The notes under the pieces: generated by a model
Databases searched by the model: none
Told to the model about the DNA's origin: nothing
Seen by the model: the letters and a program-made list of their open reading frames with translations, nothing else
Assembly (NCBI RefSeq): GCF_058153355.1
Contig: NZ_CM177019.1
DNA length: 64,000 bases
Direction: 5' to 3' (one strand)
In this document: positions 10,900-17,619 of the stretch, one piece after another
Numbering within the stretch: the stretch's first letter is position 1
Layout of the letters: each line of letters begins with the position of its first letter
Program-made: the position numbers and the translations under genes

Positions 10900-11147
10900 G
10901 TCATCTCAGGAGTTTTAATACACGAAGAGTGCCCGGATACTAGCGATTATATTCATATTTAATTATTAGTGCGGGGAAAGAGATTATGCATTGGCATATT
11001 TCTCTAACGTCCGCGATAGAAAAACAACTTTAAATATAAATAAAGAACAAACCACCTTTGCATTCAACCTCATCTGAGCTGACTATAGTACAAATTATAT
11101 TGATATTCTTTATCAACATCATTGGAACAGAAGAATAAGGCGAAGAA

Positions 11148-11471
11148 ATGAAGTGTATAGTAATTGATACTGTAATACAACCTTCGTGTGGTATATATTT
11201 TTCAGTCATATGGAGCGATATAAAAATGATCATTTGGTATCGTTCAAATATCTTTCTCCCACCTGGCAGCATATTTACAGTTATTAAGTCAGGTATTATA
11301 CTCGAGGATAAAGAATATCCGATCAGTATTTTTAACGTGGCGCTATTCAACAAAAATTTATGGAATTTAATCAAAAATAGTCAAGAGTGTCCTACAGAAT
11401 CAAACAAAATTACGAATAAATGCCTGCATAAGCATTGCATTATGCAAATATGTCCACATGGTCTCAAGTAA
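11148..11471 (+). CDS. iraM: Anti-adaptor protein IraM
   Basis: 107-aa [21 protein letters not shown]...[18 protein letters not shown]; recognised as IraM. Confidence 0.88.
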
Positions 11472-11518
11472 TGGGGGTTATTTAACCTTCCCTATATGCT
11501 ATAGATAAATCTACCAAA

Positions 11519-11560
11519 AACTGCCCCTTCGTAGAGGGGCTCTATGATTTTGTTTTATTT
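11519..11560 (+). terminator. Rho-independent terminator after iraM
   Basis: GC hairpin CTGCCCC-TTCGTAG-AGGGGC followed by a T-rich tract. Confidence 0.6.
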
Positions 11561-12205
11561 GAAGGCATGGTGCTGAATGTACTCGTTGAATCCAGATTCA
11601 ACACCTGAAGCTACACTTAACCCATAATACTTGTTTCTGGTTCCTCTACCGAGTGGTCAAACAATGATATGTATGTGACGTCAGAGTTTATTTTTTTAGT
11701 GTTTAATGCTATTAATTTAACGTAGTTACCTATCTTTTTTCTACCTTCTGAACTAACCTTAGGTTTCAACGTATCCGGCAGGAGGGGCTATCCCCAATCT
11801 TAAATTTTGCTGCCCGATTTGCTCAAGCCAAAGTTTTAATTTTACAACCTATAAACCTGAGTTAAATCAACCTCATGGTGCTGTCTGTTCCCGCTGTGGA
11901 ACAAGACTCACTGCAACATCTTGCATTCCTAAACTTCGCAGAAGGCGATGGGCAAAAACTGTACTGTAATGTTATTTCGATGTCTCTTATGGTAAATAGG
12001 AGGCGTCGAGGCTAAGTGAGTAGCCTGCTTGCTTCTCAAGCCTGGATACTATCAGCATTCACGTCAGATGAAATGATGATATTTCGCGTAAGAAAGAGGC
12101 ATTTTTTTATCAACTTCACATCGGAGATGGTAATAATCCTATGGGTCCAGTCCATATGAGGGGGTCAACATACTATAAAATTCACAATCATAAATTAACT
12201 ATATA

Positions 12206-13663
12206 TCAAGAACGCCAAAAAAATCCTGAAAATAGTATAATAACAGGGTAAATTTCAAGTCGACCAAGAATCATAGCAATACACATGAGATATTTTGCAA
12301 TATCATTAAGAACACCGAATGAGGATGCGGTAGCCCCAAAACCCAGCCCCATATTATTAATGCATGCAGCGACTGTCGCAAATGATGTAAGGAAATCATA
12401 TCCCATACCGTTTAGCACCAGTATAAAAAACACTGTAAAGAAAGTATAAAGAAAAAAGAAACTCCATACAGACCTCATTACGCGGTCTGTAACAATCTTC
12501 CCTCCTACATTTACACTAAGCAATGCTCTGGGATGAGAAAGCTGATTTATTTCGTGTTTACTTTGTTTAAAAAGTATAAGAAATCTAAGTGATTTAATTC
12601 CGCCGCACGTTGAGCCTATACATCCCCCAAAAAAACTTGACAGCAGCAAAAAAACTATCGTATGTGTGGGCCAGTTTGAATAATCCTGCGTAGCTAAACC
12701 ATTATCAGTGAGCATGGAGCTAGCAAGAAAAAACGAATGAACAACACTTCCAGTTAAGTCATACATACCTATATGCCAGACCTGGAAAGAGGTAACAATA
12801 ATAACACCTGAAGCTATTAACAAAAAGAAACGAAGTTCAACATCTGTGAGTAAGGGTTTTATTGTTTTCCTGCTTATAACAACATACCAAAGAGTGAAGT
12901 TGAAAGCCGATAACAGAGAAAAAGAGCCCGCCACCAGTTCAATCAAATAATTATTGAAATAGCCGATACTCTCACTATGAGTTGAAAAACCGCCAAGAGA
13001 AACTGTAGAAAGTCCATGACAAATAGCATCAAACAAAGGCATTCCTGCAAGTCGATAACAAACAATACAAGCAATGCCTAATAAAGAATAAGTTATCCAA
13101 AGTGTCCGCGACGTATCAGCCAAGCGTGGAGTCAGTTTGTCATCCTTAAATGGCCCTGGCATTTCTGACTGATAAAGTTTTGCACCACCAATACCCAATA
13201 ATGGCAACACAGCAACTGCCAGAACAATAACCCCTAAACCGCCGATAAAATTTAATTGTGACCGGTAGAACAAATATGCCCGAGATAATGAACTGACATC
13301 ATCAATTACTGTTGCTCCTGTTGTTGTTATTCCGGAAACCCCTTCAAACAGCGCGTCAGCAAACGTTAAATTAAGCTCTGAATCAATCCATAATGGAAAT
13401 GCGCTAATAATAGAAAATAAAATCCAAAACATTACAATTATAATAAACCCATCACGGGTGCGTAATTGAATGCCAGATTTTTTAGTGGTATACCACGCTC
13501 CGCCACCAATACAAAAAAATATAACAAAAGTAATAAAAAAAACGAACAAGCTTTTTTCTTTATAAAACAATGCTACAACCATTGGTGGTAACATTGAAAG
13601 ACTATAGAGCCAGACCAAGAACCCACACATATGAGTTACAACTCTTACATGAGATGTATTCAT
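12206..13663 (-). CDS. trkG: TrkH/TrkG-family K+ uptake membrane protein (TrkG-like)
   Basis: Multi-pass membrane protein with TrkH-family motifs (SGITTTGATV, repeated G-rich pore loops); 485 aa from MNTSHV (ORF could start 18 nt upstream at 13681); very AT-rich. Confidence 0.7.
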   Translation of the reverse strand: MNTSHVRVVTHMCGFLVWLYSLSMLPPMVVALFYKEKSLFVFFITFVIFFCIGGGAWYTTKKSGIQLRTRDGFIIIVMFWILFSIISAFPLWIDSELNLTFADALFEGVSGITTTGATVIDDVSSLSRAYLFYRSQLNFIGGLGVIVLAVAVLPLLGIGGAKLYQSEMPGPFKDDKLTPRLADTSRTLWITYSLLGIACIVCYRLAGMPLFDAICHGLSTVSLGGFSTHSESIGYFNNYLIELVAGSFSLLSAFNFTLWYVVISRKTIKPLLTDVELRFFLLIASGVIIVTSFQVWHIGMYDLTGSVVHSFFLASSMLTDNGLATQDYSNWPTHTIVFLLLSSFFGGCIGSTCGGIKSLRFLILFKQSKHEINQLSHPRALLSVNVGGKIVTDRVMRSVWSFFFLYTFFTVFFILVLNGMGYDFLTSFATVAACINNMGLGFGATASSFGVLNDIAKYLMCIAMILGRLEIYPVIILFSGFFWRS

Positions 13664-14099
13664 ATCCAAATGTTCTTTCAATTATAACCACCTTACTGCA
13701 ATGTCATGATTATACTGTATAAATTTTAACTCTTCTTAGATCTTACTTCACTGGTCCTTATGAAACAATCAGCAAAATGAATCTTATTATAACACTGTTC
13801 GGTTATGTATTGTTGAGCCTTCCCGCTGGGCCTGCATCATTACAAGTCGCTCCCTATGGGGCTTTGTCGAATAAATAATTTTTCGGTAAGTATCCCCTGA
13901 GCAGGTTGTATCTTCAGGCAGTATGAACACTTTCTGGCATACCTACCTTCGTCATTATGTTCAGCGTATGCACCATGACCAAAGCCTCTGCAACCGGCCG
14001 ATCATAATCTAGCAACATCAGAGAACCTCAGAATAACTGTTTTACCCTGTACATTGCCGTTTCCGCTATTGAGCAACGATTGTAATCTTTTGTCCATTT

Positions 14100-14530
14100 T
14101 CACCGGGAATTACCCTCGGTCAATCGCTGATACGCGACTGCACAGTTACGGTCGGCATACTCACCGGACCAGTAACCCGCTCCTTTTTGGGGTGGGATGA
14201 GCGCGCTGATTTTCACACGGCGCAGCTGCTCGTAACAGAGCCGAGAGGCGTAAACTCCGTCTGCTGCTGTCCTGATTTTTTGATGGGTTTGCCGGATTAA
14301 TCCGGCTACACCTCTACATCCGTTACGCTGAATGCTGAGGTCGCCCTTGGGAAGAAGGCATTGCTGACTTATACCAATCCGAAATCACCTCCTCGTGCAA
14401 CCAGACAGGGAGGGGCCTCGGTTGATAAGAGCTCTGTTATTGATGTGCCAGTTGGTGATTCTAACTTTTGCTTTGTAACGGGACGAGCCGTGTTGGCAGA
14501 TGATGTGTGGTCTGATCCTTAAACTCAGTA
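14100..14530 (-). pseudogene. IS5-family (IS903-group) transposase remnant
   Basis: Minus-strand frame without start codon encodes ...VAGLIRQTHQKIRTAADGVYASRLCYEQLRRVKISALIPPQKGAGYWSGEYADRNCAV..., matching the C-terminal region of the IS903 transposase as I recall it; truncated by stops; no intact ORF. Confidence 0.6.
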
Positions 14531-14544
14531 AAAGTACGATTTAT

Positions 14545-14585
14545 TCAAAAAAGCCCCTCCACTATGATTTCGATTTAAGGGGCTG
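14545..14585 (-). terminator. Rho-independent terminator downstream of the 458-aa gene
   Basis: On the minus strand, AGCCCCTT...AAGGGGCT hairpin followed by TTTTTGAATAAA. Confidence 0.5.
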
Positions 14586-14615
14586 ATGATTATGTAACGC
14601 GAATTTACCGGATCC

Positions 14616-16001
<1,386 letters not shown>

Positions 16002-16320
16002 TCAGGGGGGTTGATATTCCGGATCATGCCGTGTTTGCCCACGGCTCCCCCTGGAGAGCTGCAGACCTGTTTATTTAACTCGCACAGCGCCGGGGCCTGT
16101 CAGCAAACAGGGAGCATAACCGTCGTGCCATTAAACGCCAGACGGGAGATCATTATTATTTTATTAATACAGATTCGTTGCATTCCGGTCTTTACCGCAG
16201 TTTAAAAGAAAAGAGAATAGGGACTTAGGCAGTAGAGCAGTCATTGGACAGACCACACTACCCCAAACTAGCAGGGGAGTTTTGATAAAATTTTGATAAC
16301 CGTTAGCATGCTAACAAAAA

Positions 16321-16383
16321 ACAACGGGCGTGTTATACGCCCGTTTCAATATTTAACACATGTAGTGATTACATATTCTTGAT
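16321..16383. repeat. icd 3'-end/terminator repeat (copy B, native icd end)
   Basis: Partner of repeat A at 10005..10066; includes the icd terminator hairpin 16323..16345 and the icd stop codon and last codons. Confidence 0.6.
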
Positions 16384-17619
16384 GATCGCGTCACCAAACT
16401 CTGAACATTTCAGCAGTTTAGCGCCTTCCATCAGACGTTCGAAGTCATAGGTTACAGTCTTCGCGTTGATTGCGCCTTCCATACCTTTAACAATCAGGTC
16501 TGCGGCTTCAGTCCAGCCCATATGGCGCAGCATCATCTCAGCGGAGAGGATGATAGAGCCTGGGTTAACTTTGTCCTGACCAGCATACTTCGGCGCAGTA
16601 CCGTGGGTGGCTTCAAACAGCGCGCATTCGTCACCGATGTTTGCGCCTGGGGCGATACCGATACCGCCAACCTGCGCTGCCAGAGCATCAGAAATGTAGT
16701 CACCGTTGAGGTTCATACAGGCGATAACGTCGTATTCAGCCGGACGCAGCAGGATCTGTTGCAGGAATGCGTCAGCAATCACGTCTTTAATGACGATCTC
16801 TTTGCCGGTGTTCGGGTTTTTGACTTTCAGCCACGGCCCGCCGTCGATCAGTTCACCGCCAAACTCTTCACGCGCCAGCTGGTAACCCCAGTCTTTAAAC
16901 GCGCCTTCGGTGAACTTCATGATGTTGCCTTTGTGCACCAGGGTCACAGAGTCACGGTCGTTAGCAATTGCGTATTCGATCGCGGCACGAACCAGACGTT
17001 TGGTGCCTTCTTCCGAACACGGCTTGATACCGATACCGCAATGTTCCGGGAAGCGAATTTTCTTCACGCCCATCTCTTCACGCAGGAATTTAATCACTTT
17101 CTCAGCGTCGGCAGAGTCAGCTTTCCATTCGATACCCGCATAAATATCTTCCGAGTTTTCACGGAAGATAACCATATCGGTCAGTTCAGGATGTTTAACC
17201 GGGCTTGGGGTGCCCTGATAGTAACGTACCGGACGCAGGCAGATGTAGAGATCCAGTTCCTGGCGCAGAGCTACGTTGAGAGAACGAATACCGCCGCCAA
17301 CCGGAGTGGTCAGAGGGCCTTTAATGGCAACGCGATACTCACGAATCAGATCAAGGGTTTCAGCAGGCAGCCAGACATCCTGACCATAAACCTGTGTGGA
17401 TTTTTCACCGGTGTAAATTTCCATCCAGGAGATTTTACGCTCGCCTTTATAGGCTTTCTCGACCGCAGCGTCGACCACTTTCAGCATGGCTGGGGTTACA
17501 TCTACACCGATTCCATCACCTTCAATGTAAGGGATAATCGGATTTTCAGGAACGTTGAGTTTGCCGTTTTGCAGGGTGATCTTCTTGCCTTGTGCCGGAA
17601 CAACTACTTTACTTTCCAT
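16369..17619 (-). CDS. icd: Isocitrate dehydrogenase (NADP)
   Basis: 416-aa [41 protein letters not shown]...; unmistakable Icd. Confidence 0.97.

What the first reader, a model, noticed from the sequence alone, without database searches (positions are those of the whole stretch)
14100..14530. Start-less IS903-like transposase fragment between the unknown gene and the trkG-like gene
A minus-strand frame of about 95 codons with no initiator encodes ...GLIRQTHQKIRTAADGVYASRLCYEQLRRVKISALIPPQKGAGYWSGEYADRNCAV..., recognisably the C-terminal DDE region of an IS5-family (IS903-group) transposase, ending in a premature stop. It marks past IS activity in the island and may have mediated its assembly or decay.
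Basis: partly seen in the sequence, partly recalled or inferred. Interest (0 to 1): 0.35.

Follow-up and report, generated by a model that had tools for sequence, protein, structure and literature searches.

The report
Dead, internally deleted IS903-type insertion sequence
This is the decayed wreck of a small jumping gene (an IS903-type insertion sequence) lying between two genes of an E. coli genomic island; public annotation already marks it as a pseudogene, and it is ordinary.

Summary
The minus-strand stop-to-stop frame 14103-14384 (94 codons) encodes the C-terminal part of an IS903-group (IS5-family) transposase. It is only part of a larger object. Window 13860-14555 is a 696-bp IS903-like element that keeps both 18-bp terminal inverted repeats. 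It aligns end to end with the 1057-bp IS903B at about 79.5% identity, apart from a roughly 352-bp internal deletion.

The gene is thoroughly dead:
- Both possible start codons are mutated.
- Two 1-bp frameshifts lie in the N-terminal part.
- Codons 66-183 are gone, including the first catalytic Asp.
- One codon is deleted, and there are two in-frame TGA stops.

Substitutions private to this copy are spread evenly over the three codon positions, which indicates long neutral decay.

The same wreck, with the same lesions, sits at the same icd-trkG locus in 18 of 5426 complete E. coli genomes. RefSeq annotates it as an IS5/IS1182 transposase pseudogene. No closer intact parent and no second copy were found.

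The flanks look like a decayed 9-bp target duplication (chance about 0.001), which favours simple insertion. The element also lies 5 bp from the point where Rac-prophage (Rz'-trkG) homology stops, so a role in assembling the island cannot be excluded. Interest is low.

The parts
13860..14555 (-). Complete extent of the IS903-like relic (696 bp), with the transposase reading on the minus strand.
   Evidence: Aligns with IS903B (1057 bp) in two blocks, nt 1-228 and nt 581-1057 in transposase orientation, at 78-80% identity (E = 5e-120 and 3e-46). Four-way alignment. In the plasmid search, 4965 of the 5000 best-scoring records cover at least 80% of it in two pieces spanning about 1057 bp.
14538..14555 (-). 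Left terminal inverted repeat (transposase 5' side): GGCTTTTTTGAATAAATC.
   Evidence: Matches the IS903B terminal repeat GGCTTTGTTGAATAAATC at 17/18 positions.
13860..13877 (+). Right terminal inverted repeat (transposase 3' side): GGCTTTGTCGAATAAATA.
   Evidence: Matches the IS903B repeat at 16/18 positions. The inverted-repeat finder pairs 13858-13876 with 14539-14557. These are the only exact matches to the degenerate repeat pattern in the 64-kb window.
14335..14474 (-). Remnant of transposase N-terminal codons 18-64, split over two reading frames.
   Evidence: tblastn segments KAKVRITNWHINNRALINRG and LPVWLHEEVISDWYKSAMPSSQGRPQ. 1-bp deletions at 14462/14463 and 14411/14412. The start codons are mutated: TTG to TTT at 14521-14523 and GTG to GTT at 14477-14479.
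14330..14331 (.). Joint of the internal deletion. About 352 bp are missing, corresponding to IS903B nt 229-580 (codons 66-183), including the first catalytic Asp (D136 in the 322-aa numbering).
   Evidence: Alignments. The joint is shared by all 18 genomes that carry the element.
13917..14303 (-). Remnant of transposase C-terminal codons 193-322, all in one frame. It has two in-frame TGA stops (14100-14102 and 14028-14030) and a one-codon deletion (14264/14265). The catalytic D208 (14259-14261) and E274 (14061-14063) codons are retained.
   Evidence: tblastn: 95/130 identities, E = 1e-63. Lesion table. RefSeq annotates 13914-14303 as an IS5/IS1182 family transposase pseudogene.
14103..14384 (-).
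   Evidence: Matches NCBIfam NF033579 (E = 5.3e-7) and Pfam PF01609 (E = 7.8e-4).
13850..13858 (+). Left copy of a probable decayed 9-bp target-site duplication: CTCCCTATG.
   Evidence: It differs from the right copy by one inserted base. A match this good arose in about 0.1% of 200,000 random flank pairs drawn from the window. Caveat: it lies 1 bp outside the canonical GGC terminus, whereas in an active relative the duplication abuts GGC/GCC directly.
14557..14566 (+). Right copy of the probable target-site duplication: CTCCACTATG.
   Evidence: It is unchanged in the strain variants examined.
13787..13859 (-). Context rather than part of the IS: the truncated 3' end (about 24 codons) of a Rac-type Rz lysis gene. 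Rac-like homology (12156-13854, including trkG) stops 5 bp from the IS end.

Best explanation
Window 13860-14555 is a fossil of an IS903-group (IS5-family) insertion sequence. It most likely entered by ordinary transposition into the intergenic DNA between the 455-aa orphan gene and a truncated Rz'-trkG block, duplicating about 9 bp of target. It then lost all function and has been drifting neutrally since.

The damage is as follows:
- Both candidate initiator codons are lost.
- Two 1-bp frameshifts lie in the N-terminal part.
- A deletion of about 352 bp removes codons 66-183, including the first catalytic Asp.
- One codon is deleted.
- Two TGA nonsense codons interrupt the C-terminal part.

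It encodes no transposase. No related active copy is present in the host genome, so it cannot move. It has no detectable present role and is inherited passively as part of a rare island at the icd locus of E. coli.

Shown here: its identity, extent, lesions, neutral substitution pattern, distribution and single-copy state. Inferred: the order of events, the mode of arrival (simple insertion), and that the decay largely predates the spread of the island within E. coli.
For: Identity and extent:
- blastn against IS903B gives two blocks, E = 5e-120 and 3e-46.
- tblastn gives E = 1e-63.
- NCBIfam IS5 transposase model: E = 4.9e-20.
- The inverted repeats sit at both ends.
- Plasmid-borne IS903B copies cover 99-100% of the element in two pieces spanning about 1057 bp.

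Lesions: mapped base by base.

Neutral decay:
- Substitutions private to this copy are 22/30/26 at codon positions 1/2/3. The two intact lineages show 12/1/15 and 4/4/33.
- Against IS903B, 34 codons differ non-synonymously and 27 synonymously. Between two intact elements the figures are 9 and 46.

Not an artefact, and not mobile now:
- The same element with the same joint lies at the same locus in 18 of 5426 complete E. coli genomes, once per genome.
- The same context appears in draft and metagenome assemblies.
- A 22-mer spanning the deletion joint is absent from the GTDB species representatives and from the JGI metagenomes.
- In one strain the relic was later hit by IS100.

Simple insertion: the flanks CTCCCTATG and CTCCACTATG differ by one inserted base, with a chance probability of about 0.001.

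Known properties of IS903, taken from papers: 1057 bp, a 969-nt transposase ORF with a TTG start, and 9-bp target duplications (PMC9282650).
Against: - The putative target duplication is imperfect (one inserted base). It also sits 1 bp outside the canonical GGC/GCC termini on both sides, whereas an active relative has its duplication directly abutting the termini.
- No empty site could be found to prove simple insertion.
- Homology to Rac-type prophages ends at 13854-13855, inside the putative target duplication. Under simple insertion this is an unexplained coincidence.
- No parent IS closer than about 80% nucleotide or 75-78% amino-acid identity was found. How much of the divergence is decay and how much is descent from a distinct IS species is only partly resolved.
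Confidence: 0.9

Rival explanations
1. The IS created the junction it sits on. It first inserted into the Rz gene of a Rac-like prophage. Then an IS903-type adjacent deletion, or recombination between two IS copies, removed the rest of the prophage and fused the IS to the orphan-gene segment. On this reading the relic marks an IS-mediated step in the assembly or decay of the island.
For: - Rac-like homology (89.7% identity over 12156-13854, in more than 1500 genomes) stops 5 bp from the IS end, inside a truncated Rz gene. The DNA on the other side of the IS (14556-16314) has no counterpart in those prophages.
- IS903 is known for frequent adjacent deletions that need both IS ends (PMC11708052).
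Against: - Adjacent deletion or inter-IS recombination should leave unrelated flanks. Here the flanks differ by a single inserted base, with a chance probability of about 0.001.
- There is no second IS903-type inverted repeat or fragment anywhere in the 64-kb window.
Confidence: 0.15
2. It is a non-autonomous, MITE-like deletion derivative that keeps both ends and can still be moved in trans by an IS903-type transposase.
For: Both terminal repeats are present and close to consensus (16/18 and 17/18), and the deletion is internal.
Against: - There is exactly one copy per genome, always at the same locus.
- The deletion-joint 22-mer is absent from the GTDB representatives and the JGI metagenomes.
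- The best-matching genome shows a single place in the megablast search, so it has no related IS copy at that sensitivity.
- IS903 transposase acts preferentially in cis (Derbyshire et al. 1990, as cited in PMC12903888).
- The two repeats differ from each other at 3 of 18 positions.
Confidence: 0.03
3. The apparent damage is a sequencing or assembly artefact, and the gene is really an intact transposase.
Against: - The element is 361 bp shorter than IS903B and has eight separate indels, two nonsense codons and two mutated start codons.
- The same structure appears in 18 finished genomes from different laboratories, hosts and countries, in draft assemblies and in a metagenome contig.
Confidence: 0.01

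Closest known systems
IS903 / IS903B (IS5 family, IS903 group; 1057 bp)
   Same: - The terminal repeats match GGCTTTGTTGAATAAATC at 16/18 and 17/18 positions.
- The element is colinear with IS903B from end to end at 79.5% identity.
- The transposase C-terminal 130 residues are 73% identical, with the second Asp and the Glu of the DDE triad in place.
- The flanks are consistent with a 9-bp target duplication.
   Different: - It is 696 bp, not 1057 bp.
- About 352 bp are deleted internally, including the first catalytic Asp.
- There is no start codon, and there are frameshifts and nonsense codons.
- It is about 20% diverged in DNA from IS903B. That is too far to be a copy of IS903B itself; two intact group members differ from each other by 15%.
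The IS903-group element present in 23 places in E. coli NMBU-W12E19 and on plasmid pECO-109b (loci L002 and L003; annotated 'IS5 family transposase')
   Same: It has the same architecture and the same ends. It gives the best megablast identity over the C-terminal arm (80.5% over about 370 bp).
   Different: Overall identity is only 76-77%. That element carries a clean 9-bp duplication abutting GGC/GCC and is multicopy, so presumably active. The window element is a single dead copy.
RefSeq/PGAP pseudogene feature 'IS5/IS1182 family transposase' (for example C6996_RS26985 in strain 2013C-4282)
   Same: It is the same DNA. The feature covers window 13914-14303 and is flagged 'internal stop; incomplete; missing N-terminus'.
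   Different: The public feature covers only the C-terminal coding remnant. It does not record the terminal repeats, the N-terminal remnant, the internal deletion or the flanking duplication.

Membership tests
IS5 family (DDE transposase, Pfam DDE_Tnp_1 / NCBIfam transpos_IS5_2) | The encoded protein is homologous to IS5-family DDE transposases. | tested here: met
   NF033579: E = 4.9e-20, 72 bits, below the 140-bit full-length cut-off because only 129 residues remain. PF01609: E = 1.6e-4, 22 bits against a cut-off of 23. tblastn against the IS903B transposase: E = 1e-63.
IS5 family (DDE transposase) | A complete catalytic D-D-E triad. | tested here: not met
   The first Asp (D136 in the 322-aa numbering) lies in the deleted segment. 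D208 and E274 codons are retained. This shows the copy is dead; it does not show it is unrelated. Which residues are catalytic in IS903 is from my own memory of the IS903 literature and was not checked here.
IS903 group | 18-bp terminal inverted repeats GGCTTTGTTGAATAAATC at both ends. | tested here: met
   16/18 at 13860-13877 and 17/18 at 14538-14555.
IS903 group | Colinear nucleotide homology with IS903-type elements over the whole length (about 1057 bp, one ORF). | tested here: inconclusive
   It is colinear and 79.5% identical over all 696 retained bases, but 361 bp are missing and the ORF is destroyed. The result is a derivative of a group member, not an intact member.
IS903 group | A 9-bp target-site duplication. 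| tested here: inconclusive
   CTCCCTATG and CTCCACTATG differ by one inserted base, with a chance probability of about 0.001. They are displaced by 1 bp from the canonical termini. No empty site was found.
IS903B / IS903 / IS102 as a named IS species | Near-identity to the reference. My recollection is that ISfinder treats less than about 90% nucleotide or 95% amino-acid identity as a different IS. | tested here: not met
   79.5% nucleotide and 73% amino-acid identity to IS903B. The best hit among 5.8 billion proteins is 75-78%. ISfinder itself could not be queried.
MITE-like non-autonomous IS derivative | Multiple dispersed copies of the same deletion derivative. | tested here: not met
   One copy per genome at one locus. 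The joint 22-mer is absent from the other collections scanned.

The most novel reading that the evidence does not exclude
The relic is the only surviving trace of an otherwise unsampled IS903-group insertion sequence. It decayed by about 13% neutral change in some other host before the island reached E. coli. Its position exactly at the seam between the Rac-derived Rz'-trkG block and the orphan-gene block would then reflect an IS-promoted joining event rather than coincidence.
Probability: 0.15. Interest if true: 0.2.

Novelty: already known. Interest (0 to 1): 0.08.

Why it matters
It matters little in itself. Decayed IS copies are common in enterobacterial islands, and this one is already flagged as a pseudogene in RefSeq.

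Its modest uses are these:
- It is a clean lineage marker for a rare island at the icd locus (orphan gene, IS relic, Rz'-trkG), found in 18 of 5426 complete E. coli genomes.
- Its roughly 13% private, position-independent substitutions contrast with under 1% variation among the E. coli copies. This suggests that the island, or at least this part of it, is much older than its spread within sampled E. coli.
- It lies at the seam between two modules of different origin, which is a small puzzle about how such patchwork islands are built.

Tried and rejected
Searches for an empty site, all negative:
- A reconstructed empty-site query of 313 bp was run against 5426 complete E. coli genomes in sensitive mode. 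No record covered both halves.
- A right-flank 22-mer was absent from the GTDB species representatives and from the JGI metagenomes.
- Exact-protein context look-ups for the orphan protein, for its 98% variant and for this TrkG allele always returned the same IS-containing context.

Looking at relatives of the orphan gene for the ancestral flank: the 55-61% paralogues lie between ygjK and fadH and share only the N-terminal two thirds. They say nothing about the IS flank.

Search for a closer parent IS: nothing above about 80% nucleotide identity in E. coli genomes or plasmids, and nothing above 75-78% amino-acid identity in the protein collection. That listing showed mainly short or partial proteins, so it is a soft negative.

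Search for spread of the deletion derivative: none found.

Search for a second IS903-type end that would indicate a composite transposon around trkG: none beyond chance-level hits with 3 mismatches.

Functional overlays:
- No Rfam match in 13400-14800 at E up to 1.
- Promoter-like and terminator-like sites are no more frequent than in shuffled sequence.

The 'sequencing error' reading is rejected.

Full report
**Where the window comes from**

The region is 100% identical to the chromosomes of E. coli 2013C-4282 and WL297. It lies in the variable segment next to icd, where K-12 carries prophage e14. The local order on the minus strand is:
- icd (16369-17619)
- a 455-aa hypothetical gene (14616-15983)
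- the finding
- trkG (12206-13663)

iraM follows on the plus strand.

**Checking the observation**

The stop-to-stop frame is 14103-14384 (94 codons). It has no ATG and ends at TGA 14100-14102. The similarity is not chance:
- The 94-aa frame matches NCBIfam NF033579 (IS5 family transposase, E = 5.3e-7) and Pfam DDE_Tnp_1.
- The extended 129-aa conceptual product scores E = 4.9e-20.
- tblastn of an IS903B transposase against the region gives E = 1e-63.

**What is really there**

The frame is part of a larger object. The inverted-repeat search pairs 13858-13876 with 14539-14557. These are the only exact matches to the degenerate IS903 repeat pattern in the 64-kb window.

Aligned to an annotated IS903B copy (locus L004, 1057 bp), window 13860-14555 matches from the first to the last base of the IS in two blocks. 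In transposase orientation these are IS903B nt 1-228 and nt 581-1057, at 78-80% identity. In the plasmid search, 4965 of the 5000 best-scoring records cover at least 80% of the 700-bp query, and the best do so in two pieces spanning about 1057 bp.

So the object is a complete-ended IS903-like element of 696 bp with an internal deletion of about 352 bp. The terminal repeats match the IS903B repeat at 16/18 positions (13860-13877) and 17/18 positions (14538-14555). According to PMC9282650, IS903 is 1057 bp, has a 969-nt transposase ORF with a TTG start, and makes 9-bp target duplications.

**Lesions (numbering of the 322-aa PGAP protein)**

- The TTG start is now TTT (14521-14523).
- The alternative GTG at codon 16 is now GTT (14477-14479).
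- 1-bp deletions at 14462/14463 and 14411/14412 put codons 18-37 and 39-64 in different frames.
- Codons 66-183 are deleted, with the joint at 14330/14331. This removes the first catalytic Asp.
- A further 1-bp deletion lies at 14300/14301.
- One codon is lost at 14264/14265.
- TGG has become TGA at 14100-14102, and GGG has become TGA at 14028-14030.

The codons for the second Asp (14259-14261) and the Glu (14061-14063) survive. The assignment of the catalytic residues is from my memory of the IS903 literature. RefSeq annotates 13914-14303 as 'IS5/IS1182 family transposase; internal stop; incomplete; missing N-terminus'.

**How old and how dead**

I aligned the relic with two intact IS903-group lineages: IS903B, and the multicopy element of strain NMBU-W12E19.
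- Substitutions private to the relic are spread evenly over codon positions (22/30/26). Those private to the intact lineages are concentrated at third positions (12/1/15 and 4/4/33).
- Over the C-terminal 128 codons the relic differs from IS903B by 34 non-synonymous and 27 synonymous codons. The two intact elements differ from each other by 9 and 46.

That is the pattern of neutral drift. About 13% of coding sites carry private changes. By contrast, the 18 E. coli copies differ from one another by less than 1%. I infer that most of the decay predates the spread of this island among sampled E. coli.

No closer parent was found:
- The best DNA identity is about 80% in E. coli genomes and plasmids.
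- The best protein identity is 75-78% in the 5.8-billion-protein collection.

**Distribution and mobility**

The same element, with the same joint, lies once per genome at the same locus in 18 of 5426 complete E. coli genomes. The same context appears in draft and metagenome assemblies reached through exact-protein look-ups. In strain EC42405 an IS100 has since inserted into the relic. A 22-mer across the deletion joint is absent from the GTDB species representatives and from the JGI metagenomes. There is therefore no sign that the deletion derivative has ever been mobilised. IS903 transposase acts preferentially in cis (Derbyshire et al. 1990, cited in PMC12903888).

**Did it build the island?**

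Two observations pull in opposite directions.

1. Evidence for a role. Homology to the lysis-trkG region of Rac-type prophages covers window 12156-13854 at 89.7% identity in more than 1500 genomes. It stops inside the 3' end of the Rz gene, 5 bp from the IS end. Everything from the other IS end to about 16314 is absent from those prophages. IS903 is known for adjacent deletions (PMC11708052).

2. Evidence against a role. The DNA just outside the element reads CTCCCTATG on the left (13850-13858) and CTCCACTATG on the right (14557-14566). These differ by one inserted base. In 200,000 random flank pairs from the window, allowing symmetric offsets of 0-2 bp, a match this good occurred with frequency about 0.001. 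A target duplication is the mark of simple insertion. It is not expected after an adjacent deletion or after recombination between two IS copies.

There is a caveat on the second point. The duplication lies 1 bp outside the canonical GGC/GCC termini on both sides, whereas an active relative has its 9-bp duplication directly abutting them.

I could not find an empty site to settle the matter. On balance I favour simple insertion into an already formed junction. I give that roughly 0.75-0.8 given that the object is an IS relic, and about 0.15 to an IS-mediated rearrangement. I record the 5-bp coincidence as unexplained.

**Other checks**

- No Rfam family matches 13400-14800 at E up to 1.
- Promoter-like and terminator-like sites are at background frequency.
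- There is no second IS903-type end in the window, so trkG is not in a composite transposon of this IS.

**Verdict**

This is a real, correctly recognised and entirely ordinary feature: an old, dead, internally deleted IS903-group insertion sequence that public records already annotate as a pseudogene. The added anatomy covers the ends, the N-terminal remnant, the deletion, the continuation past the stop, and the probable target duplication. It refines the picture without making it more surprising.

Noticed in passing
window 14616-15983 (minus): A 455-aa orphan protein next to the relic. It has no Pfam, NCBIfam or PADLOC match, and only weak PHROG hits (11707 and 10109, both of unknown function) to residues 319-452. 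It has no tblastn match in the phage records at E <= 1e-5. All named hits in the family are from E. coli. Paralogues at 55-61% identity sit at a different locus, between ygjK and fadH, and share only the N-terminal two thirds (window 16215-14931). That shared part contains two internal repeats. The gene looks chimeric.
   Followed up: partly
window 13787-13859 (minus) and 12156-13854: The last 24 or so codons of a Rac-type Rz (i-spanin) lysis gene survive upstream of trkG. The whole 1.7-kb Rz'-trkG block is 89.7% identical to the lysis-trkG region of lambdoid prophages in more than 1500 E. coli genomes. Here it has no other prophage genes around it.
   Followed up: partly
window 10001-10066 and 16317-16383: A 67-bp direct repeat at 83.6% identity. 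It consists of the last 15 nt of icd plus the 52 nt downstream, and it brackets about 6.2 kb that includes iraM, trkG, the IS relic and the orphan gene. It may be an att-like or icdC-like scar of past integration at icd.
   Followed up: no
window 11143-11508: The iraM allele here is only about 80% identical in DNA to the K-12-type iraM region. The segments 11509-12155 and 13855-16314 have no counterpart in the K-12-like comparator.
   Followed up: no
locus L005 (E. coli EC42405), equivalent to window ~14086/14087: In one carrier strain an IS100 (IS21 family, istA/istB) has inserted into the relic and split the pseudogene in two.
   Followed up: yes
locus L006 (E. coli HUE1 and similar strains): In some other strains a lysis-trkG-ynaK' segment flanked by two IS1 copies lies next to icd, beside an integrase fragment. 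trkG has therefore reached the icd locus independently through a different IS.
   Followed up: no
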